From Anolis carolinensis (taxonomy: Eukaryota): a stretch of 64,000 bases of DNA. Made by a program: the position numbers and the translations under genes. Of this stretch, positions 49,755 to 63,797 are shown in pieces. Location of the stretch: positions 28,328,024 through 28,392,023 of the forward strand of contig NC_085845.1 of assembly GCF_035594765.1 (NCBI RefSeq), written 5' to 3'. The notes under the pieces are model-generated. The model searched no databases and was not told the DNA's origin. It saw nothing but the letters and a program-made list of their open reading frames with translations. The stretch's first letter is position 1, and the number at the start of each line of letters is the position of its first letter.

Positions 49755-49962
49755 CTAAATATCCGACATATACCAGATTCTGTCTGAAGTTGGAAGCTAA
49801 GCCAGGTCAGGCCCTGGATGAGAGACCTCCAATGAATAACAAGTGCTGTAGGCTATATTTCAGAAGAAGGGACTGGCAAAACCACCTCTGAACACTCCTT
49901 GCCTAAGAAAACCCTATAAAACTAATGGGATTATCTTAAGGTGAATTGAAGGCACACACACA
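49755..49962 (+). mobile_element. 5S rRNA-derived SINE in LEF1 intron 2
   Basis: GGAAGCTAAGCCAGGTCAGGCC...GTGCTGTAGGCT; same body and tail. Confidence 0.8.
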
Positions 49963-50089
49963 GGCATACTATCAGTTGCCACATGAACCTGCTGATATTA
50001 TACAGATTCTAAAGAACTGTTACAGGTACACCTCTGCCACAATGTAAAGCAACAACGTGAAACTTTGTAAAGTAAAGAACAACTCTCAC

Positions 50090-50153
50090 CTTCCTCAGGA
50101 TGTTCTCTGCCTTTGTCATGGTAAATTTCCTGAGGCTGGCCTTGCCTGGACAC
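50090..50153 (-). CDS. LEF1: LEF1 coding exon 2 (64 nt)
   Basis: Acceptor TTTTGGCTAG|, reads VSRQGQPQEIYHDKGREHPEE+G (human VARQAQTSQEPYHDKAREHPDD, from memory), donor G|GTGAGA, phase 1. Not represented in this frame in the ORF track. Confidence 0.95.
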
Positions 50154-50424
50154 CTAGCCAAAAAGAAACCATCCAATATCATTATCACATTAGCATCCAT
50201 TTAATTTGATTTGTCCATGCTAAAACCTGGTGATGTCCGACTGCTACAGAAACAGAATAACTTCCTAATGTATAAGCTTGAAATGATGCTCCAGAAAAGG
50301 AAGCAAAGGGTTTATGTTGTCTAACTTTGTTCAGCTTTACTGGCTTTCCATGTTTAGTGACATAGTGGCTTCTACAGTTTTATTTTGAAAAATGTCACTG
50401 AGAGTCTCTGTATTACCATTAAAT

Positions 50425-50650
50425 CTAACACCTCCCCAGGCAGGAAGCAGTCAAGCTTTGAAGCTGCAAGGCCATTAAATGCTAATCAAGCTGGCCAACT
50501 GCAACCTTCACACTTGCCTCAAAAGACAAGAGTTATTTCTCCCACCCAGGGCATTCCCCATTTGCCTAGTTTCCAACAGACTTCACAACCTCTGAGATGT
50601 GGATGAAACATCAGGAGAGAATGCTTCTGGAACATGGTCCAGGAAACCCA
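50425..50650 (+). mobile_element. Penelope 3'/pLTR fragment (deleted)
   Basis: Similar to the other copies; hammerhead stem II deleted. Confidence 0.8.
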
Positions 50651-50821
50651 AACCATTTCCTGATTGCTTTAATGCTGGTAAATTACTAAACAGTTTATGC
50701 AAATGCTTTATACAGTTGATGACTAATGCTCTGACCTTGCTGATTTAAACCCAAGAGATTGTATGGCTATTCTAGGCTTAATGGTGTTTATTATATTATT
50801 CTTTTTCATATAAACTTTCCT

Positions 50822-51260
50822 AGCCCTATGAGGACAAGCCCTATGAGGAGCGGCTTAAAGAGCTGGGCATGTTTAGCCTGCAGAAGAGAAGGCTGAGAGG
50901 AGACATGATAGCCATGTACAAATATGTGAAGGGAAGTCATAGGGAAGAGGGAGCAAGCTTGTTTTCTGCTGCCCTGCAGACTAGGACACGGAACAATGGC
51001 TTCAAACTACAGGAAAGGAGATTCCACCTGAACATCAGGAAGAACTTCCTCACTGTGAGAGCTGTTCGACAGTGGAACTCTCTCCCCGGGCCATGGTGGA
51101 GGCTCCTTCCTTGGAGGCTTTTAAGCAGAGGCTGGATGGCCATCTGTCGGGGGGTGCTTTGAATGCGATTTCCTGCTTCTTAGCAGGGGGTTGGACTAGA
51201 TGGCCCATGTGGTCTCTTCCAACTCTACTATTCTATGATTCTATGATTCTATGATTCTAT
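50822..51260 (+). mobile_element. CR1 LINE 3' end (young) in LEF1 intron 1
   Basis: Nearly identical to 19086-19437; (TTCTATGA)n tail. Confidence 0.93.
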
Positions 51261-51544
51261 GCCATGAAAATTGATTTACATTCAATACTATGAATATCGA
51301 TGTAGAAATAAGTCTCACTGCATTAAACACGAATTACTTCCAGGTAACTTGCTTGAGGACTGCAGTATAAAGGAGAAGGGACTTACAATATATTGTAGAT
51401 TGGTGAGGCATCATGTCCACACCAAAAATAAAATAAAAATTATTATGCATTACACAGGATAAATGCAACAAACATAACAAGCTACAAGAACTAATAGCTA
51501 ACATGCTTGTTTACCAAATAGTGCAGATTATTCTAATATGTATT

Positions 51545-51903
51545 GGGTTTCTGTGAGTTTTCCAGGCTGCATGGTCATGTTCCAGAAGCATTCTCTCCTG
51601 ATGTTTCACCCACATCTATGTCAGGTACCCTCAGTGGTTGTGAAGTCTGTTGGAAACTAGGCAAGTGGGGTTTATATATTTGTGGAAAGTCCAGATTGGG
51701 AGAAATAACTCTTGTTTATTTGGTATTAGACTCCATAGATATATAAACCCCACTTCCCTAGTTTCCAACATACCACACAACCTCTGAGGATGCCTGCCAC
51801 AGATGTAGGAAAAATATCAGGAGAGAATGCTTCTGGAAGATGACCATATAGCCTGGAAAACTCACAGCAACCCAGTGATTCTGGCCATGAAAGCCTTCGA
51901 CAA
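51545..51903. mobile_element. Short Penelope insertion with inverted pLTRs
   Basis: TSD CTAATATGTATT (51533-51544) / CTAATACGTATT (51904-51915); ends ...GCCATGAAAGCCTTCGACAA. Confidence 0.88.
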
Positions 51904-52561
51904 CTAATACGTATTTATTGACAATAAAGTTAACCAGCTACTACTTTCAAATCAATCTGTGCAAGTTCCTGCGAATCGTGAGACAGGCTAGAAACAATGA
52001 AAATAACACAAAGCCAAGGCAAACAATGAACAACTTAAACTGAAGCAAGTTTGTAACTCAATCCCATCTCTGAACAAAGTCCTGCTGACTTTCCATATGC
52101 TTTATTCTCAGGACTGCCGCCAGGATTGTAAATGACACTGATTTTGAGTGGAATTTATTTGAAGTGTGTCTGCTTGAGACCATTCTGCTGCCTGTTTTTG
52201 TTACAGCTCCACTTATTTTCTTAATATATTGCTGATATCAGAATCCGGCAGCAGCAAGAGAAGAAGGTGTTTCTCCTGATATACAAGCAGCAGCTCCCAG
52301 TTCCCATGGTCAAGCCACTGAAGCCAGAGAAGTAAGGGTTCTAGAGTTTCTACAGATACCTTTCATGCATCTTTTCCCCCTGAAACATGCTCTGATTTAC
52401 TGAAATTCAGGCTTGGGTAATACATGCGGCAGGCTCATCCTGTTTCCTTTGGCAGCAACATGAAAACATCAGAGAACTGCCTACTTAAGGCTACAGTGCC
52501 TTTCTCTGTACTATACTGCCAAATTTGATCCCTGAAATTTTCTGAAATAACTTTTTTTGGC

Positions 52562-53693
52562 TGTTGAACGCTTTTATGGCCAGAATCACAGGGTTGATGT
52601 GAGTTTTCCGAGCTGTATGGCCATGTTCCAGAAGCATTATCTCCTGACATTTCGCCTGCATCTATGGCAGGCATCCTCAGAGGTTGTGAGGTCTATTGGA
52701 AACTAGGCAAGTGAGGTTTATATATCTGTGGAATGATGTCCAGGGTGGGAGAAAGAACTCTTGTCTGTTTCAGGCAGGTGTGGATGTTTCCATTGGCCAC
52801 CCTGATCAGCATTGAATAGCCTTTCAGCTTCAAGGTCTGGCTGCTCCCTGCCTGGGGGAATCCTTTGTTGGGAGGTGTTAGCTGGCCCTGATTGATTCGT
52901 GTCTGGAATTACCGTTTTCAGAATGCTGGGAGCCCCGGTGGCGAAGTGCGTTAAAGCGCTGAGCTGCTGAACTTGCAGACCGAAAGGTCCCAGGTTCAAA
53001 CCCCGGAAGCAGAGTGAGCCCCCGCTGTTAGCTCTAGCTCCTGCCAACCTAGCAGTTCGAAAACATGCCAATGTGAGTAGATCAATATGTACTGCTCCGG
53101 CAGGAAGGTAAGGACGCTCCATGCAGTCATGCCAGCCACATGACCTTGGAGGTGTCTATGGACAACGCCGGCTCTTCGGCTTAGAAATGGAGATGAGCAC
53201 CAACTCCCAGAGTCAGACATGACTGGACTTAACGTCAGGGGAAACCTTTACATATTCCTGTTTTCAGAGTGTTGTTCTTTATTTACTCTCCTGATTTTAG
53301 AGTTTTTAAAAATACTGGTAGCAAAATCTGGCTACCAGTATTTAAAGAACTCTAAAATCAGGAGAGTAAATAAAGGAAAACACTCTGAAAACAGGAATTC
53401 CAGACATGAAACAGTCAGGGCTAGCTAACAAAGGATTCCCCCAGGAAGGAAACAGCCAGGATTTAAAGCTACAAGGCTATTCAATGCTATTCAAGGTGTC
53501 CAATGGAAACATCCACACCTGCCTGAAAGTTCTTTCTCCCACCCTGAATCTTCCACAGATATATAAACCCTACTTGACTAGTTTCCAACAGACCTCACAA
53601 CCTCTGGGAATGCTTGCCATAAATGCAGGCGAAACCTCAGGAGATAATGCTTCTTGAACATGGCCATACAGCCCGGGAAACTCACAGCAACCC
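52562..53693. mobile_element. Inverted Penelope pair with nested Sauria SINE (52929-53251, +)
   Basis: pLTR/3' sequence on minus then plus strand, with a fold-back junction at ~53323-53330. Confidence 0.88.
52643..52683 (-). ncRNA. Near-intact hammerhead motif, LEF1-sense
   Basis: Core intact except GAAATGTC (C>T in the palindromic stem III). Confidence 0.6.
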
Positions 53694-53714
53694 AGACACT
53701 ATGGCTGCTTTTGA

Positions 53715-54010
53715 ACCTCTGCGTTCGCCCCGAGTCACAACTCCAAAAAGGAAGTGAGAGGAGGAAGGGGGAGAGCCTCCGCGGCGGCCAACAGCTTCCA
53801 GCTCCGATCCCTCCTCCTTCTCTTCCTCCTCCTCTTCTTCTCCCAGCGCTGCTCATTCATGGGGAACCGCGGCGGATCGGATTTCAAAGCGCCGCCGTCC
53901 AAAAACAGCCGCCCGGCCGGCGGTTCCCGGTTTCCATGCCCCGGCACACACGCAGGCTGCCTCGGCCCTGCTCGCCTGGGAGAGCCTGCCCTTCCGAAAG
54001 GCCCCTCTTG
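53715..54010. promoter_or_regulatory. CpG-rich unique segment in LEF1 intron 1
   Basis: High CpG density between TE blocks; TCF motif TTCAAAG at 53883-53889; ETS-like GGAAGT at ~53750. Confidence 0.55.
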
Positions 54011-54204
54011 TGAAATATCCATTGGGTTTTGTGGTGCCGTGGTTTGAGCGTTAAGACCGTGGCTGTACTGCCATCAGAGAATGAAGGCAGATAGACAGCT
54101 CTTTTCACTGCCATGGTTCAGTGCTATGGAACCCTAGGCATGGGTAAACTTGAGCCTCCAGGTTCTTTGGATTTCAACTCCCACAATTCCTAACAGCCTA
54201 CCGG

Positions 54205-54990
54205 CTGGGCTGCTTTGAGTTTTCAGGGCTGCATGGCCATGTTCCAGAAGCATGCTTTCCTGACGTTTCGCCCGCATCAATGGCAGGCATCCTCAGAGGT
54301 TGTGAGATCTTTTGGAAACTAAGCAAGTAGGGTTTATATATCTCTGGAAGATTCAGGGTGGGAGAAAGAACTCTTTTCTGTTAAAAGCAAGTGTGAATGT
54401 TTCAATTGGCCATCTTGATTAGCATTGAATAGCCTTTCAGTTTCAAGGCCTGGGTGCTTCCTGGCTGAGGGAATCCTTTGTTGGGAGCTGTTACCTGCCC
54501 TGACTGTTTCATGACTGGAATTCCCCTGTCTTATGACTGTTCTTTACTGTCCTGATTTTAGAATCTTTTAATACTAGTAGCCAGATTTTATTCATTTTCA
54601 TGGTTTCCTTCTTCTTTCTCTTGAAATTGTCCACATTCTTGTGGATTTCAGTGGATTCTCTGTGTAGTCTGTGAGTGAGAGTGGTCCAGCATTGCTGTGT
54701 TCTCAAATAATATGCTGTGTCCAGGTTGGTTCATCAAGTGCTCTGCTATGGCTGACTTTTCTGGTTGAATCAGCCTGCAGTGTTTGGGCATTGCTGCGTT
54801 TGCTGGTCCCTATGGAGACTTGTCCACAGCTACACAGTATACGGTAGACTCCTGCAGAGGTGAGAGGATCCCTCTTGTCCTTTGCTGAATGTAGTATTTG
54901 TTGGATTTTCTTAGTGAGTCTGCAGATAGTTTGTAGGTTGTGTTTCTTCATCAGCTTCCCTATGTGGTCAATGGTTGCCTTCATGTATGG
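54205..54990 (-). mobile_element. Penelope-like element 3' part (degenerate GIY-YIG endonuclease + pLTR)
   Basis: ORF remnants ...DKRDPLTSAGVYRILCSCGQVSIGT... and ...LHRESTEIHKNVDNFKR... match the Penelope/Poseidon GIY-YIG domain; followed by pLTR. Confidence 0.9.
54259..54299 (-). ncRNA. Minimal hammerhead ribozyme motif, LEF1-sense, intron 1
   Basis: CCT CTGAGGA T GCCTGC CATTGAT GCGGGC GAAACGTC AGG; core intact. Confidence 0.78.
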
Positions 54991-55004
54991 TAAGATCCTC
55001 TTAC

Positions 55005-55885
55005 CTCAGTAGGAATCTACCGTATACCATGCAGCTGTGGACAAGTCTACATAGGGACCAGCAAACATGAATCAAGGAATATGAAAAGCACTACAGACTA
55101 ACTCAACTGGAGAAGTCAGACATAGCAGAGCGCTTGATGAACCAACCTGGACACAACATATTATTTGAGAACACAGAAATGCTGGACCACTCTCACAACC
55201 ATCCTGTCAGACTACACAGAGAAGCCATTCAAATCCACAAGCATGTGGACAACTTCAACAGAATGGAGGGAACCATGAAAATGAACACCATCTGGCTACT
55301 AGTATTTTAGAAAATCTAAAACCAGGACAGTAAATAAAGAACAAGAGTCAGAAAACAGGCCCGGGCTGTGGCTCAGGCTGGTGAGTAGCCAACTGCAGCC
55401 AGCTGCAACAAATCACTCTGGCCAAAAGGTCATGAGTTCGAGGCCAGCTTGTCTCTGTCTTTGTTCTATGTTAAGGCATTGAATGTTTGCCTTATATGTG
55501 TAATGTGATCCGCCCTGAGTCCCCTTCGGGGTGAGAAGGGCAAAATATAAATACTGTAAATAAATAAATAAACAGGAGAATCCCAGACATGAAACAATCA
55601 GGGCCAGCTAACACCTCCCAACAAAGGATTCCCTCAGGCAGGAAGCAGCCAGGCTTTGAAACTGCAAGGCTTTTCAATGCTAACCAAAGTGATTAATTGC
55701 CACATTTACACTTGCCTCCAACAGACATGAGTTATTTTTCTCACCTTGGACCTTTTACAAATAAAGTATGTAAACTTCATTTGCTTAGTTCCCAACAAAC
55801 CTCACAACATCTGAGGTTGCCTGCCATAGATGTGAGCGAAACGTCAGCAGAGAAATGGCCATACAGCCCGGAAAACTCATCATAG
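55005..55885 (+). mobile_element. Penelope-like element, inverted partner of 54205-54990, interrupted by a SINE
   Basis: Reverse complement of the same GIY-YIG/pLTR sequence. Confidence 0.88.
55359..55571 (+). mobile_element. L2-tailed tRNA SINE (Anolis SINE2-like)
   Basis: Tail GTGATCCGCCCTGAGTCCCCTTCGGGGTGAGAAGGG...(AAAT)n; AAACAGG direct repeat on the flanks. Confidence 0.82.
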
Positions 55886-56015
55886 CAATTGTTAGGGATT
55901 GTGGGAGTTGGAAGTCCAAAAAATCTGGAGGGATGGCCGAAGTTTGCCCTTGCCGTAACTTTAACTAACTTACTCTCGCTGGTGAATAACTACTCCTTCC
56001 AGAAAGTTTCTTCCA

Positions 56016-56142
56016 GGGTTGTTGCATGTTTTCCGGGCTGTATGGCCATGTTCTAGAAGTATTATCTCCTGACGTTTCGCCCACATCTATGGCAGGCATC
56101 CTCAGAGGTTGTGAGGTATGGAGAAACTCAGCAAGGAAGGTG
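56016..56142 (-). mobile_element. Mini Penelope pLTR insertion (~127 bp)
   Basis: Flanked by GAAAGTTTCTTCCA (56002-56015) and GAAAGTTTGTTCCA (56143-56156), a 13/14 TSD. Confidence 0.8.
56068..56108 (-). ncRNA. Minimal type I hammerhead ribozyme motif (Penelope pLTR), LEF1-sense, intron 1
   Basis: Minus strand CCT CTGAGGA T GCCTGC CATAGAT GTGGGC GAAAC GTC AGG: CUGANGA and GAAA cores, stem II, palindromic ACGU stem III, GUC triplet, CCU/AGG stem I. Confidence 0.8.
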
Positions 56143-56237
56143 GAAAGTTTGTTCCACCTTCCCAGCTGCAGTGCCACCTCCCGCTGCCCCACACCAATGG
56201 CCTACTCTCCTCTTCCTCTTCTTCTTCTTCTTCTTAC

Positions 56238-56465
56238 CTCGTGCCCATTGCTGCTAGGGATGGTTTCCGACTCGTTGACCAGCGAGGACTTGATGTCGGC
56301 CAAGTCTCCCTCTTCCTCCGGGTGGCTGATCTCGGCGAAGATCTTCTCCTTCTGGGGGTCGCCCTCGTCTTTGAAAGGGATCATCTCGTCGGTGGCGCAG
56401 AGCTCGGGGTCGCCTCCTCCTCCTCCGCCGCCGCCTCCTCCTCCTCCTCCCGAGAGCTGAGGCAT
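56238..56465 (-). CDS. LEF1: LEF1 coding exon 1 (beta-catenin-binding domain), 76 codons
   Basis: Translates MPQLS(G)13DPELCATDEMIPFKDEGDPQKEKIFAEISHPEEEGDLADIKSSLVNESETIPSSNGHE, the LEF1 N-terminus. ATG context GCCACGATGC. Donor GAG|GTAAGA at 56237, phase 0. Confidence 0.98.
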
Positions 56466-56833
56466 CGTGGCTGCTGCCTCTGGAGAGCCTGGAGGAGAGA
56501 GGGAAGGAAGGAAGAGAAACAACAGGAAGGATGGAAGTTAGAAGTCTTGGAGAGGAGGCTCCCTAATCTAATCAACCCACGCAAATACACAAAGAGTTAC
56601 CCTCCTTCCATCCCTACGCCACTCACCACCAAACACCTGGAGAAAGGGGAGAAGAGAAGGGGGAAGGACTCTCCCTCTGCTTGGTCTGCCGGCTTTTAAA
56701 AGAGAGGAAGGAAGGAAGGAAGGAAGGAAGGAAGGAATACAGACCCCCTTCCCTTCCCCAGTTTCTGTAGTGTCTGCCGCAAGAAGTCTGGACAAGTTTG
56801 CGCCTCTGCCCGGTTTGGCTTCTCTGCGTCACT
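56466..56833 (-). promoter_or_regulatory. LEF1 proximal 5' UTR / CpG-island segment
   Basis: Unique GC-rich sequence immediately upstream of the ATG; contains a (GGAA)n tract at ~56706-56737. Confidence 0.65.
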
Positions 56834-58009
56834 GTGTTGTTGGAGGCTTTCGTGGCCGGAATCACTAGGTTGCTGTGAGTTTTCCGGGCTGTGTGGCTAT
56901 GTTCCAGAAACATTCCCTCCTGACGTTTCGCCCACATCTATGGCAGGCATCCTCAGAGGTTGTGGGTTCTGTTAGAAACTCAGAAAGTGGGGTTTATATA
57001 TATGTGGAAGGCCCAGGTCTTGTCTGTTTGAGGCAAGTGTGAATGTTGCTATTTTTTTTTCGTATCAGGAGCAACCGGAGTTGCTTCTGGAGTGAGAGAA
57101 TTGGCCGTCAGCAAGGACGTTGCCCAGGGGACGCCCAGATGTTTTTGATGTTTTTACCATCCTTGTGGGAGGCTTCTCTCATGTCCCCGCATGGAGCTGG
57201 AGCAGATAGAGGGAGCTCATCCTCATTCTCCCCGGGTGGGATTCGAACCTGGCAGCCTTCAGGTCAGCAACCCAGCCTTCAAGTCACGAGGCTTTAATCC
57301 CCTAGGCCATCGGAGGCTCCAATGTTGTTATTGATCAGCATTGAATAGCCTTTCAGCTTCAAAGCGTGGCTGCTTCCTGCCTGGGGGAATCCTTTGTTGG
57401 GAGGTGATTCGCTGTCCCTGATTGTTTATTATCTGGAATTCCTCTGTTTTTGAGCGTTGTTCTTTATTTACTGTCCTCTGCAGGAGTCTACCTTATACCA
57501 TACAGGTGTGGACAAGTCTACATACATAGGGACCACCAACCACAGCATTACCCTAACAGGAATCAATGAATATGAAAGGCACTGCAGACTAACTCAACCA
57601 GAGAAAGCCATTAGCAGAGCACTTGATGAGTTGAGAACTATTTTGTATCTGGGCTCTGCTAGTCTATGTCAGCCCAATTTACCACCATAGGCCACACAAC
57701 CAACCAAACAACTTTGTGAACTCCAACTAGCTTCAGTAAATTAATGTGAATGTTTGTTCAGAATTTATGCCATTATGTAATTTTTTGTCTGACTATGTTG
57801 GTTTAATTTATTGATGTTAGGTTTAATTCACTGATGTTAGGTTTAATTTGATGTTAGGGTTTAATTACTGATTTCATATGTGGTTGTTTTTTTCTGGGAT
57901 GCTATGTAGGTATTTGTCAGTTTTAGTGAAGGCTGTTAATGTTTGCCCTTGAATTTGGAATCTGCTCTGAGTCTCTTTGGGGAGAATAAGCAGAACAGAA
58001 ATAAAGTTC

Positions 58010-58062
<53 letters not shown>

Positions 58063-59858
58063 GTGATGAACCAACCTGGACACAGTATATTATTGGAGAA
58101 CACAGAAATGCTGGACCACTCTAACAACCACCATGTCAGCCTACACAGATAAGCCATTGAAATCCACAAGCATGTGGACAATTTCAACAGAAAGGAGGAA
58201 ACCATAAAAATGAACAAAATCTGGCTACCAGTATTTTTAAAAATCCTCTAAAATCAGGACAGTAAATAAAGACCAACACTAAGAAAACAGGGGAATTCCA
58301 GACAGGAAACAATCAGGGCCAGCTAATCACCTCCCAACAAAGGATTCCCCCAGGTAGGAAGCAGCCAAGCTTTGAAGCTACAAGGCTATTCAATGCTAAT
58401 CAAGGTGATCAATTACAACATTCACACTTGCTACAAAAAAAAAAAAAAGGTGGGTTGCTGTGAGCTTTCCGGGCTGTATGGCCATGCTGCAGAAGCATTC
58501 TCTCTTGAGGTTTCACTCACATCTATGGCAGGCATCCTCAGAAGTTGTGAGGTTTGGTGGAAACTAGGTAAGTGGGGTTTATATATCTGTGGAAGGTCCA
58601 GGGTGGGAGAAAGAACTCTTGTCTATTGGAGGTAAGCATGAATGTTGCAATTAATCAACTTGGTTAGCATTGAATGGCCTTGCAGCTTCAAGGCCAGGCT
58701 GATTCCTGCCTGGGATAATCCTTTGTTGCAAGGTGTTCAGGGTGAATCTACACTAAAATGAATGAGGATTGGCACCACTTTAACTGTCATGGAATCATGG
58801 GATCTGTAGTTTGGTGAGGCACCAGCACTCTTTGGCAGAGAAGGGAATTCCAGACAAGAAACTATCAGGGCCAGCTAACACCTCCCAGCAAAGGATTTCC
58901 CCAGGCAGTAAACAACCAGACCTTCAAACTGAAAGGCTATTCAATGCTAATCAAGGTGATCAATTGCAACATTCACACTTGCCTCAAACAGACAAGACTT
59001 CTTTCTCCCACCTTGGACCTACTCTAAGGTAAAGGTAAGTCCAGTCATGTCTGACTCTGGGGGTTGGTGCTCATCTCAATTTCTAAGCCGAAGAGCAGGC
59101 GTTGTCCGTAGACACCTCCAAGGTCATATGGCCGGTATAACTGCATGGAGCGCCGGGACCTTCCCTCCGGAGAGGTACCTATTGATCTACTCACATTGGC
59201 ATGTTTTCGAACTGCTAGGTTGGCAGAAGCTGGAGCTAACAGCGGCCTCTCACGTCGCTCCTGGGGTTTGAACCTGGGACCTTTCGGTCCGCAAGTTCAG
59301 CAGCTCAGTGCTTTAACACACTTCGCCACCGGGGCTCCAATTAGGGTTTTTATAGAACGTAGTCTTGTGGGATCTTTAGGCTCTTTCTCCCACCCTGGGC
59401 ATTCCACAGATACAATAGAGTCTCACATATCCAACATAAACGGGCCGGCAGAATGTTGGATAAGCGAATATGTTGGATAATAAGGAGAGATTAAGAAAAA
59501 GCCTATTAAACATCAAAATAGGTTATGATTTTACAAATTAAGCACCAAAACATCATGTTATACAACAAATTTGACAGAAAAAGTAGTTCATTACACATTA
59601 ATGCTATGTAGTAATTACTGCATTCACGAATTTAGCACCAAAATATCACAATGTATTGAAAACATTGACTACAAAAATGCATTGGATAATCCAGAACCTT
59701 GGATAAGTGAGACTCTACTGTATATAAACCCCACTTGCCTAGTTCCCAACAAACCTCACAACCTCTGAGGATGCCTGCCTTAGATGTGGGCGGAAGGTGA
59801 GGAGAGAATGCTTCTGGAACCTCCCCATACAGCCCGGAAAACTCACAGCAACCCAATA
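56834..59858. mobile_element. ~3 kb nested composite: Penelope with inverted pLTR ends plus nested SINEs, L2 tail, MITEs
   Basis: Inverted pLTR termini; GCGTCACT at 56826-56833 and 59859-59866. Nested: SINE 57053-57320, L2-like tail/(AAT)n ~57700-58062, Sauria SINE 59027-59338, mariner MITE 59413-59720. Confidence 0.85.
56919..56959 (-). ncRNA. Minimal type I hammerhead ribozyme motif, LEF1-sense, ~450 nt upstream of ATG
   Basis: Same 41-nt intact motif as 56068-56108. Confidence 0.8.
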
Positions 59859-59859
59859 G

Positions 59860-60930
59860 CGTCACTTTTGTTTTGTTTTTTCCAAAACATAAACACCCGC
59901 TGTCTTTCTTTTTTTTCTCTTCTTCCGCTTGGGATCGTCTTTTTAAAAATAGAAATAAAAAAATCATGCAGGTCAAGAGAGTAAGATTCCCACAAAGGAA
60001 AAAGAGCTATTTTGGGGGAGTCTGGAGGGATGTTGACAGGGCAGAGTGGAGAAAGAAGGGAGAAGGAAGGGGAAATGCCACAGACAGAGACTTCACCGAG
60101 GGAAGGGGAAATGCCAGAGTGAAAGAGAGAGGAGAAGAGGAAAGGGAGAAGAAGGGAAGCCGCTCTCTCGCACACTCGTTCCCCTCCACGGAGCTCCCCA
60201 GCCACGCACGCCTCCCCAATCCTCTCCCCTTCCCAAACCCACGCACCGGGCCTCTGCCTTTGTCCCCGGGACCGGGGAGTGCTGGTCTCCCCCTTCCGAA
60301 AGGTCTCTCCCTCCTCTTCCTCGCTGCCGTCGCCTCCGGAGAGAAAAAGGGGCGACTCTGGGGGTTGGGGTCCGCCAGGAGGGCTGCGTGGAGACCCCGA
60401 AGCCCCTTGAGCGAGACCCCGAAACTTCTCCCCTGGAAGAAGAAGAAGAAAAAGAGTCCAAGGTTGACTAAGTCCTCAGGAGAAAGACTCCGTCCGTGGG
60501 GTTCTTCTTTCGTGGTCCAAACAATCCTCGGGAATGCGAAGGGGGAAAAGAGTCGCCTCGCTGCGTGCGACCCACGGTCTCGCGTGGAGCCTGCTCCAAA
60601 AGGCAGTGGTTTCTCTCTCTCTGCCTCTCTCTCTCTCTCCTCCTCTGTCTCCCTCCGTAGTGGAACTTTAACATTCCCTCCTCCTCCTCCCACTCCCCTT
60701 TCCCTCCCTCCTCCCCCTTTTCCTCTCTCTCTCGCTCTGTTGAAAGGGTGGGGGCGGGAGGAAGAAGATGAAAGGGAAGCCGCCGCTTTGATTGACAGCG
60801 CATTGATAGACGCTCGGGAGAGAGGGAGAGAAAAAGGAAATGTAGCCATCCCGAGGAGGAGGGGAGGTGGTGGTGGTAGTGGAAAAGGCGGGGGGGGGGG
60901 GTGGACTCACAACAACCTCAACCCAGCTTA
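59860..60930 (-). promoter_or_regulatory. CpG/GC-rich segment, probable LEF1 promoter and distal 5' UTR
   Basis: Non-repeat, CpG-dense, with GA/CT tracts, a GC box (GGGGCGGG ~60750) and a TCF/LEF motif CTTTGAT at 60786-60792. TSS not determinable from sequence. Confidence 0.65.
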
Positions 60931-61020
60931 GGAAGCAGCGAACTGGGAAAGGGATAGGATGGATCTCTCTCTTTTGAAAAATTATTATATCTATGTACCC
61001 AAAGTTTTTTTTCCCCACCA

Positions 61021-61447
61021 CCCCCTTACCATGGGAAATGAAGATCATAAAGCAGCCTCGGCTACTGAGTTCCACATCAGGAAAGGTGCAAGCTCAGGGT
61101 TAGGAAGCAAGAAATGTACCTGGGAAAACAAGAAAATATGCCAAGAAGTCCCTCTGAAAACAAAACAAAAACATAAATGGTATTGTGTTGTCGAACACCC
61201 TGAACCTTCCACAGATATTTAAACCCCCCTTGCCTAGTTCCCCCTTACCATGGGAAATGAAGATCATAAAGCAGCCTCAGCTACTGAGTTCCACATCAGG
61301 AAAGGTGTAAACTCAGGGTCAGGAAGCAAGAAATGTACCTAGGAAAACAAGAAAGTAAGCCAAGAAGTCCCTCTGAAAACAAAACAAAAACATAAATGGC
61401 ATTGTGTTGTCGAACACCCTGAACCTTCCACAGATATTTAAACCCCA
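61021..61447 (+). repeat. ~219-bp tandem duplication upstream of the presumed promoter
   Basis: CCCCCTTACCATGGGAAATGAAGATC... starts at 61021 and 61240; few mismatches. Confidence 0.92.
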
Positions 61448-61480
61448 CTTTTGCCTAGTAGTTTCCAACAGACCTCACAA

Positions 61481-61521
61481 CCTCTGAGGATGCCTGCCAT
61501 AGATGCAGGCGAAACGTCAGG
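61481..61521 (+). ncRNA. Minimal hammerhead ribozyme motif
   Basis: CCT CTGAGGA T GCCTGC CATAGAT GCAGGC GAAACGTC AGG; perfect stem II. Confidence 0.8.
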
Positions 61522-61678
61522 AAAGAATGCTTCTGGAACATGGCCATACCGCCCGGAAAACTCACAGCAACCCATACATTGCATTGTTTTTGTGTCCCGT
61601 TGAAGGCTTTCATGGCCGGAATCATTGGGTTGCTGTGAGTTTTCCGGGCTATATGGCCATGTTCCAGAAGCATTATCT

Positions 61679-61719
61679 CCTGACGTTTCGCCTGCATCTG
61701 TGGCAGGCATCCTCAGAGG
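61679..61719 (-). ncRNA. Minimal hammerhead ribozyme motif
   Basis: Intact core, inverted relative to the 61481 copy. Confidence 0.8.
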
Positions 61720-62562
61720 TTGTGAGGTCGGTTGGAAACTAGGCAAGTGGGGTTTATATATCTGTGGAAGGTCCACGGTGGGAGAAAGAGGCAGGTGTGA
61801 ATGTTGCAGTTGACCAGCTTGATTAGCATTGAATGGCCTTTGCAGTTTCAAAGCCTGGCTGCTTCCTATCTGGAGGAATCCTTTGTTGGGAGGTGTTAGC
61901 TGGCCCTGATTGTTTCCTGTCTGGAATTTCCCTGTCTTCTGATTGTTGTTTTCTGAGTGTTCTTGATGAACCAACCTGGAAACAGCCTATTATTATAGAA
62001 CATAGAAATGCTGGACCACTCTCACAACCACAATGTCAGACTACACAGAAAAGCCCTTGAAAGCCACAAGCATATGGGCAGTGTTAGCAGAAAGAAGGAA
62101 ACCATGAAAATGAACAAAACGTGGCGACCAGTATTAAAAACATCTTTAAAATCAGGACAGTAAATAAAGAACACCACTCTGTAAACAGGGGAATTCCAGA
62201 CATGAATCGATCAGGGCCAGCTAACACCTCCCAACAAAGGATTCCTCCAGGCAGGGAGCAGCGAGATCTTGACGCTGAAAGGCTATTCAATACTAATCAA
62301 GGTGGTCAACTGCAGCATTCACACCTGTCTCAAACAGACAAGAGTTCTTTCTCCTACCCTGGACTTTCCAGATATTTAAACCCCTCTTGCCTAGTTTCCA
62401 ACAGACTTCACAATCTTTGAGGATGCCTGCCATAGATATGGGCGAAACGTCAGGAGAGAATGCTTGTGGAACAGCCCGGAAAACTCACAGCAACCCTGAA
62501 TTGTTTGTAATGTTGTGAGTCGTTTTAAGAGAGAAAAGCGGATATCATCATCATCATCATTA

Positions 62563-63597: not shown

Positions 63598-63797
63598 ACT
63601 CTTGTCACACCCTGGACTCTCCACAGATATATATTTTTTCCTTTCCTTGCCTAGTTTATCCATGCCTCACAACCTCTGAGGATGCCTGCCATAGATGTGG
63701 GCGAAACGTCAGGAGAGAATACTTTTGGAACATGGTCACACAGCCCGAAAGACATACAACAACCCTGTGATCCCGGCCATGAAAGCCTTCGACAACC
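63598..63797 (+). mobile_element. Penelope pLTR fragment
   Basis: Ends CCGGCCATGAAAGCCTTCGACAAC. Confidence 0.85.
63673..63713 (+). ncRNA. Minimal hammerhead ribozyme motif
   Basis: Intact core inside pLTR fragment 63598-63797. Confidence 0.8.

What the first reader, a model, noticed from the sequence alone, without database searches (positions are those of the whole stretch)
56826..59866. A 3-kb Penelope-bounded TE nest with an exact 8-bp TSD splits the LEF1 5' leader/promoter
Seen: GCGTCACT directly flanks both ends of a block that begins and ends with inverted pLTR sequence, the same architecture as the small TSD-flanked copy at 51545-51903. The block contains at least five later insertions. 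Removing it joins two unique GC-rich segments into ~1.4 kb upstream of the ATG. Established: human LEF1 has a long (~1.2 kb) structured 5' UTR with reported IRES activity. Inference: the lizard gene must carry a ~4 kb leader, splice the block out as a new TE-born intron, or have moved its TSS.
Basis: partly seen in the sequence, partly recalled or inferred. Interest (0 to 1): 0.75.

Follow-up and report, generated by a model that had tools for sequence, protein, structure and literature searches.

The report
Transposon pile inside LEF1 leader intron
A real 3-kb pile of old transposons sits upstream of a lizard's LEF1 start codon, but it likely lies inside an intron of the 5' leader whose splice sites are the gene's own, so the mRNA would carry a short, clean leader and the case is fairly ordinary.

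Summary
GCGTCACT flanks both ends (56826-56833, 59859-59866; 16 of 3000 random pairings match as well). The block is one old inverted Poseidon (Penelope-like) insertion of about 1.06 kb carrying six later insertions; this architecture is published. In run X8, which behaves as spliced RNA, one contig lies on 60246-60508 and leaves the genome at the best donor of the distal flank. Its 75 unplaced letters fit the best of 244 acceptors, at 56488, 23 nt before the ATG, and would then overlap the exon-1 contig by exactly 30 letters (k-1). The tool did not display the joint, so it is inferred, from one run. The block would sit in a 3758-nt 5' UTR intron whose splice sites are host sequence 380 and 337 nt from the block. 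The spliced leader is at least 285 nt with no upstream ATG (53 if unspliced). So the data point away from a 4-kb leader, a moved start or a TE-born intron. Still open: whether the 725-nt host intron is ancestral or arose in lizards from what humans keep as the 1.2-kb 'IRES' leader; no usable orthologue was obtained.

The parts
56238..56465 (-). LEF1 coding part of the ATG exon (76 aa, beta-catenin-binding domain, poly-Gly)
   Evidence: translation; PF08347 E 2e-27; X8 record 27 on 56244-56401
56466..56488 (-). 23-nt untranslated start of the ATG exon (inferred)
   Evidence: acceptor analysis and 30-letter contig overlap
56489..56541 (-). Predicted 3' splice site: CTAAC branch-like motif about 50 nt upstream, pyrimidine tract 18 of 18, 55-nt AG-free zone, CAG|G
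   Evidence: sequence; top of 244 AG sites
56489..60246 (-). Inferred 5' UTR intron, 3758 nt (725 nt without the block)
   Evidence: joint inferred, not displayed
56826..56833 (+). Left target-site duplication GCGTCACT
56834..57477 (-). Left arm of outer Poseidon: tailed pLTR end (ORF codons 1-39) and ORF 3' end, interrupted by a SINE
57052..57320 (-). Nested SINE-like element with 10-nt TSD (1 mismatch), 94% to 26603-26882
57471..59855 (+). Right arm of outer Poseidon in four colinear pieces (57471-57629, 58064-58437, 59381-59412, 59721-59855): endonuclease region (residues 696-829 of P0002), pLTR, tailless end at codon 28
   Evidence: colinear with sister copy 54860-54206; tblastn
57630..58063 (+). 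Nested insert ending in (TAA)n, TGATGA duplicated on both sides; family not identified
58438..59020 (.). Inner inverted Poseidon copy with a 99-nt insert at 58738-58836; its right end is lost
59021..59338 (-). Nested SINE, 78-90% to five other window copies (the label Sauria SINE is recalled, from no call)
59411..59720 (.). Nested MITE-like element with terminal inverted repeats at a TA, 86-91% to four other window copies
59859..59866 (+). Right target-site duplication GCGTCACT
60241..60249 (-). Predicted 5' splice site CCG|GTGCGT (GT at 60246-60245), best consensus score in the distal flank
   Evidence: X8 record 31 ends here
60247..60508 (-). Inferred non-coding first exon, at least 262 nt, CpG-rich, no ATG; true start not mapped
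   Evidence: X8 record 31
60509..60930 (-). Candidate promoter region; weak match to a human -1628 promoter primer at 60773
   Evidence: 5 of 200 shuffles; contigs of X2 and X11 cover it

Best explanation
An inverted Poseidon retrotransposon copy with an exact 8-bp target duplication, later hit by six more insertions, likely lies inside a host-defined intron of the lizard LEF1 5' leader and would be spliced out with it. Shown: the element's anatomy, the TSD and the nesting. Inferred: transcription starts at or upstream of 60508; a non-coding first exon ends at the GT at 60246 and joins the acceptor at 56488, giving a leader of at least 285 nt without upstream ATGs. Inferred from published chemistry: the Poseidon protein nicked both strands 8 bp apart and primed reverse transcription from each nick, once at each of its two internal start sites, which gives one tailed and one tailless end facing outwards. 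Inferred and untested: the 725-nt intron was already there, which is why a 1-kb insertion this close to the promoter was tolerated and could grow to 3 kb.
For: X8 behaves as spliced RNA: depth 7.27 in bin 49950-50318 equals 67.1 letters at depth 40, and exon 2 (64 nt) plus letters shared at both joints is 67; its record 27 stops at the exon-1 donor while X2 record 14 runs through it in one piece. X8 record 31 lies on 60246-60508 with its first 75 letters elsewhere; 60246 is the G of the top-scoring donor in the distal flank. Joined to 56488 it shares exactly one letter with the intron start, as seen, and overlaps record 27 by exactly 30 letters, the k-1 overlap of adjacent contigs at word length 31. 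56488 ranks first of 244 AG sites. Upstream ATGs: 0 spliced, 53 unspliced, 3 in the unspliced leader without the block, all 3 inside the inferred intron. Both splice sites lie in unique flanks, 380 and 337 nt from the TSDs. Right-arm pieces are colinear with a sister copy, so both ends belong to one element. Tailed end at codon 39 agrees with the RT start 111-118 nt into the ORF; both strands are cleaved and extended in vitro (PMC11167929).
Against: The joint is not displayed: 56402-56523 was skipped as repeat and only 15 of 1176 joints were shown. It rests on one run whose RNA nature is the tool's guess plus my arithmetic. The piece table does not show every piece of a record, so the 75 letters could lie in the TE block; 57 of 268 AG sites share the one letter, though of the 3 hidden in skipped repeats only 56488 gives the 30-letter overlap. 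X11 record 8 crosses the donor unspliced (60040-60748); if X11 is RNA, unspliced or antisense forms exist. Depth is 14.2 on the first exon against 40 on the coding exons, so other 5' forms may exist. No orthologue shows the intron is older than the insertion; the human leader is drawn as continuous from -1189 (PMC4499130). The two arms are 85.6% alike, no more than the median of 66 pairs. The TSD is GC-rich although Poseidon prefers AT-rich targets.
Confidence: 0.68

Rival explanations
1. Intronization: the ancestral leader was one long exon as in human; the Poseidon insertion (or earlier drift in lizards) was rescued by turning on weak host splice sites on either side, which then matured into today's intron.
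For: Human leader reported as continuous, 1189 nt; the lizard leader without the block is at least 1010 nt, a similar length; 3 of 8 human primers match the distal flank in colinear order.
Against: The acceptor is mature (best of 244, branch motif, 55-nt AG-free zone). The block carries 50 of the 53 upstream ATGs of the unspliced form, so an insertion into an unspliced leader would likely be harmful unless splicing already worked (inference). The splice outcome is the same; only the order differs and it was not testable here.
Confidence: 0.18
2. The distal exon splices into an exonised TE piece inside the block, or belongs to another transcript, and LEF1 mRNA starts just upstream of the ATG (moved start).
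For: The 75 letters are not placed in the table shown; 57 AG sites fit the one-letter rule, one with a fair tract at 59778; depth differs 14.2 vs 40.
Against: The exact 30-letter overlap arises with 56488, also the best acceptor. GT-AG polarity is that of the LEF1 strand.
Confidence: 0.09
3. The mRNA keeps a 4-kb unspliced leader containing the whole nest, perhaps translated internally.
For: X11 record 8 crosses the donor unspliced; human LEF1 has a long leader with reported IRES activity.
Against: 53 upstream ATGs and 3 AATAAA in the unspliced form; X8 leaves the genome at the donor; X11 also covers a GC-rich stretch of intron 1 (53956-54178), as a DNA library would.
Confidence: 0.03
4. The 8-bp match is chance and the block is a pile of unrelated insertions.
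For: 3 extra bases at the right end; arms no more alike than unrelated copies.
Against: 16 of 3000 by chance; 2 of 3 other complete inverted copies have 10-12-nt TSDs; right-arm pieces colinear.
Confidence: 0.02

Closest known systems
Poseidon from Anolis carolinensis (PAc), Penelope/Poseidon clade (PMC11167929)
   Same: pLTR/ORF-start sequence matches Fig. S1B by eye, closest at 63709-63796; ends fall at two fixed sites, tail end at codon 39; endonuclease-region remnants 60-83% identical to an 836-aa A. carolinensis RT protein.
   Different: The block's arms carry sister-subfamily letters, are 7-8% from the local majority, hold no RT domain and are dead fragments; target is GC-rich.
Inverted-pLTR insertions of Penelope-like elements (PMC8557442, PMC2377424)
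   Same: Inverted 5'-truncated copy, 30-40-bp tail at one end only, TSDs (passages).
   Different: No structural difference found; only the later nesting.
Human LEF1 P1 leader (1.18-1.19 kb, reported IRES; PMC4248067, PMC4499130)
   Same: Same gene; similar distance from start region to ATG once the block is removed; weak colinear primer matches at human -1628, -951, -391.
   Different: The lizard leader is inferred to be spliced to about 0.3 kb; the human one is described as continuous. Homology of the leaders is only hinted, not shown.
Putative cellular IRESes that overlap promoters and 3' splice sites (PMC9456764)
   Same: A long annotated leader holding a strong 3' splice site close to the ATG is the pattern that paper links to false IRES signals.
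   Different: LEF1 is absent from its main text search count and from 5 of 5 supplements searched; no human LEF1 splice site was tested here.

Membership tests
Penelope-like element, Poseidon clade | pLTR overlapping the ORF start, ending at one of two RT start sites (tail of 30-40 bp) | tested here: met
   12 of 12 aligned ends stop at two sites, 5 tailed and 7 tailless; codons 39 and 28; paper
Penelope-like element, Poseidon clade | C-terminal GIY-YIG endonuclease after a telomerase-like RT | tested here: inconclusive
   tblastn places residues 696-829 of RT protein P0002, with a GVY...YIG motif, in the block; Pfam found no GIY-YIG family in 2 of 2 decayed fragments; no RT remnant in the block
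Penelope-like element, Poseidon clade | Inverted arms flanked by a TSD | tested here: met
Penelope-like element, Poseidon clade | Hammerhead ribozyme motif in the pLTR | tested here: inconclusive
   Rfam at gathering score found 0 matches in the window; no dedicated model built
U2-type 5' UTR intron | GT donor, branch site, pyrimidine tract, AG acceptor on the gene's strand | tested here: met
   (simple consensus counts, no trained model)
U2-type 5' UTR intron | Junction seen in RNA | tested here: inconclusive
   inferred from contig end, 75 unplaced letters and k-1 overlap in one run; joint not displayed
TE-born intron (introner type) | Splice sites supplied by the element's ends or its TSD | tested here: not met
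   inferred sites lie 380 and 337 nt outside the TSDs in unique sequence
Intron gained by intronization | Orthologous stretch exonic in outgroups, intronic here | not testable with these tools
   only orthologue obtained is a fish-like contig with 244 nt upstream and no leader alignment
LEF1 (TCF/LEF family) | N-terminal beta-catenin-binding domain and LEF1-type exons | tested here: met
   the name LEF1 among TCF/LEF paralogues rests on recalled sequence features

The most novel reading that the evidence does not exclude
The stretch that humans keep as the 1.2-kb LEF1 'IRES' leader is a spliced intron in lizards: either the leader was intronized around a retrotransposon insertion, a datable intron gain in a core Wnt gene, or amniotes share a donor near the TCF site and an acceptor just before the ATG, and the human IRES region holds a retained intron whose 3' splice site could account for its bicistronic signal.
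Probability: 0.25. Interest if true: 0.55.

Novelty: new member of a known kind. Interest (0 to 1): 0.27.

Why it matters
As a TE nest it is ordinary for this genome: the element, its inverted form and its tail are published. It matters modestly because it exposes a likely 5' UTR intron in lizard LEF1 where the human gene is described with one long leader. Comparing the two splice sites across amniotes is a cheap test of intron gain in a leader and of whether the reported human LEF1 IRES contains a 3' splice site.

Tried and rejected
No whole genome is held for this window, so no genome-wide copy survey. No RNA holder listed: none of 24 runs is on record as RNA. Parts without cover in X8 (56524-56591, 59913-60245, 60651-61000, intron bin 52164-52532; bin arithmetic) fit the spliced reading but no contig is shown joining across them, so they are not counted as evidence. 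No empty-site joint (56833 to 59867) among the 15 of 1176 joints shown; that says nothing on polymorphism. X7 record 21 runs 30 letters into the block at the left TSD, one short of the tool's bridging rule; the right junction is not in the table. Metagenome scan for orthologues: 6 loci, 1 true relative (L001, 244 nt upstream, aligns only over the coding exon). Human primer test: 3 of 8 primers in the distal flank were reached by 5, 22 and 12 of 200 shuffles, the other 5 by 31-200; in the proximal flank best 23 of 200; combined by hand about p 0.09, so only a hint. Rfam: 0 matches. Pfam on endonuclease fragments: no relevant family. Earlier findings: 3 answered look-ups, all empty. Literature searches listed no title or abstract start on a LEF1 5' UTR intron or on this locus; the original LEF1 IRES paper was not obtained, and Fig. 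S2 of PMC11167929 gave no text. Rejected: TE-born intron (sites outside element), 4-kb leader, chance TSD.

Full report
Setting. The minus strand carries LEF1: ATG at 56465, a 228-nt coding part of the first coding exon, exon 2 at 50153-50090 and exon 3 at 48600-48467, which join in frame; Pfam finds CTNNB1_binding at E 2e-27. The repeats match the Poseidon element of the green anole (PMC11167929 Fig. S1B, compared by eye) and the nearest proteins of an endonuclease fragment are from Anolis (2 of 30 candidates passed), so the window is most likely an anole. No whole genome was available.

The observation. GCGTCACT lies at 56826-56833 and 59859-59866. An exact 8-mer within 6 nt of both ends appeared in 16 of 3000 random pairings. 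Two of the three other inverted copies with both ends intact have 12- and 10-nt duplications with one mismatch; the third has none. The flanks are unique in the window.

Anatomy. The outer element has a minus-oriented left arm (56834-57477) and a plus-oriented right arm in four pieces that are colinear with sister copy 54860-54206. tblastn with an 836-aa Anolis RT protein puts residues 696-739 and 745-829 (endonuclease region) and then 1-28 on the right arm, and 1-39 on the left arm. De-nested, it is about 1.06 kb; about 1.96 kb was added later by six pieces: a SINE with a 10-nt TSD, an unidentified (TAA)n-tailed insert with TGATGA duplicated, an inner inverted Poseidon, a 99-nt insert in it, a second SINE, and a MITE at a TA. 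All 12 aligned pLTR ends stop at one of two sites. PMC11167929 (first two of four parts read) shows that the protein cuts and extends both strands and starts at two internal sites that bound the tail, one 111-118 nt into the ORF; the tailed end here is codon 39. Inverted copies with a tail at one end are described in PMC8557442 and PMC2377424 (passages). The arms are 6.8% and 8.3% from the local majority and 85.6% alike, equal to the median of 66 pairs: an old insertion, and arm identity neither supports nor harms the single-event reading.

The transcript. Of 24 runs listed, none is on record as RNA. I laid four on 49950-61000; all are contigs and TE contigs crowded the tables. X8 behaves as spliced RNA: its depth in the exon-2 bin equals 67.1 letters at depth 40, and exon 2 plus the letters shared at its two joints is 67; its record 27 (536 nt, depth 40) is laid only from 56244, at the exon-1 donor, whereas X2 record 14 passes that point in one piece. 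X8 record 31 (338 nt, depth 14.2) is laid on 60246-60508 and its first 75 letters go elsewhere. 60246 is the G of CCG|GTGCGT, the best consensus donor of the distal flank. Of 268 AG sites downstream, 57 would share exactly one letter with the intron start as observed; 3 of these fall wholly in stretches known or presumed to be skipped as repeats; only 56488 makes record 31 overlap record 27 by 30 letters, the overlap of neighbouring contigs at word length 31 (that neighbouring contigs overlap by k-1 is general knowledge). 56488 is also first of 244 AG sites by pyrimidine count, with a 55-nt AG-free zone and a CTAAC motif about 50 nt upstream. The joint itself is not displayed, because 56402-56523 was skipped and 1161 joints were cut, and the piece table omits some pieces, so an acceptor inside the block is not formally excluded. 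One run supports it. Against: X11 record 8 crosses the donor unspliced (60040-60748); X11 also covers a GC-rich part of intron 1, so it may be DNA, but its library is not on record. X2 and X7 cover unique intron sequence and behave as DNA.

What follows. The inferred intron is 3758 nt, 725 nt without the block, with its sites 380 and 337 nt outside the TSDs. The spliced leader is at least 285 nt with no upstream ATG; unspliced it would be 4043 nt with 53, and unspliced without the block 1010 nt with 3, all in the intron part. The simplest history is a Poseidon insertion into an existing leader intron, tolerated because it is spliced out, and then a safe landing place for more elements. That the intron came first is inference from the mature acceptor and from the cost of an ATG-rich insert in an exon; no orthologue tests it.

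Comparison with human. The human main start is at -1189 and the leader is drawn as continuous (PMC4499130, passages, one section and the whole supplement); the IRES reporter holds 1.178 kb (PMC4248067, passages). Eight published primers chosen by spacing were compared with the flanks: three match the distal flank in colinear order (human -1628, -951, -391 at lizard offsets -1275, -771, -532 without the block; 5, 22 and 12 of 200 shuffles), five are at chance level, and none stands out in the proximal flank. This is a hint of homology only. The -951 match is a TCF-type site 10-20 nt before the lizard donor, and the human -11 primer read in sense begins with an AG at about -30/-29 (lizard AG at -25/-24). 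If these are homologous, most of the human IRES region corresponds to the lizard intron. PMC9456764 (passages) links such 3' splice sites to false IRES signals but does not name LEF1. Nine literature searches, read as listings, showed nothing on a LEF1 leader intron or this locus; subscription papers, including the original IRES paper, were not searchable, so this is no proof of novelty.

Verdict. Real and correctly described, but best explained as an old TE nest in a host 5' UTR intron (0.68; 0.86 with the intronization variant, which has the same splice outcome). New member of a known kind; interest 0.27. The open question worth a day's work is the age of the intron and whether mammals share its splice sites.

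Noticed in passing
window 51544-51904, 52552-53695, 56834-59855, 61588-62496: All 4 of 4 inverted Poseidon copies with both ends intact have one tailed and one tailless end; would fit one RT start site per strand. Tail at one end only is already described; n is too small (1 in 16 by chance at even odds).
   Followed up: partly
window 53668-54000: Unique GC-rich stretch in LEF1 intron 1; X2 contig depth 40.7 against 4-14 on its other unique intron contigs, and covered in X11. Candidate regulatory element or internal promoter; library types unknown.
   Followed up: no
window 61021-61574: 219-bp tandem duplication (96% alike) ending in a pLTR, abutting a further inverted Poseidon, about 500 bp upstream of the RNA-like contig's start: the promoter region is hemmed in by Poseidon copies on both sides.
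   Followed up: no
window 60773-60815: Dense motif cluster on the minus strand (TGTCA, TCAATCA, ATCAAAG; factor labels MEIS/PBX/TCF are recalled) next to the best human primer match.
   Followed up: partly
window 56413-56448: Poly-glycine run of 13 codons after MPQLS, longer than the 5 in the fish-like L001; contigs break here.
   Followed up: no
window 63630-63796: pLTR copy that matches the published PAc sequence almost letter for letter and differs from the sister subfamily that makes up the other copies.
   Followed up: partly
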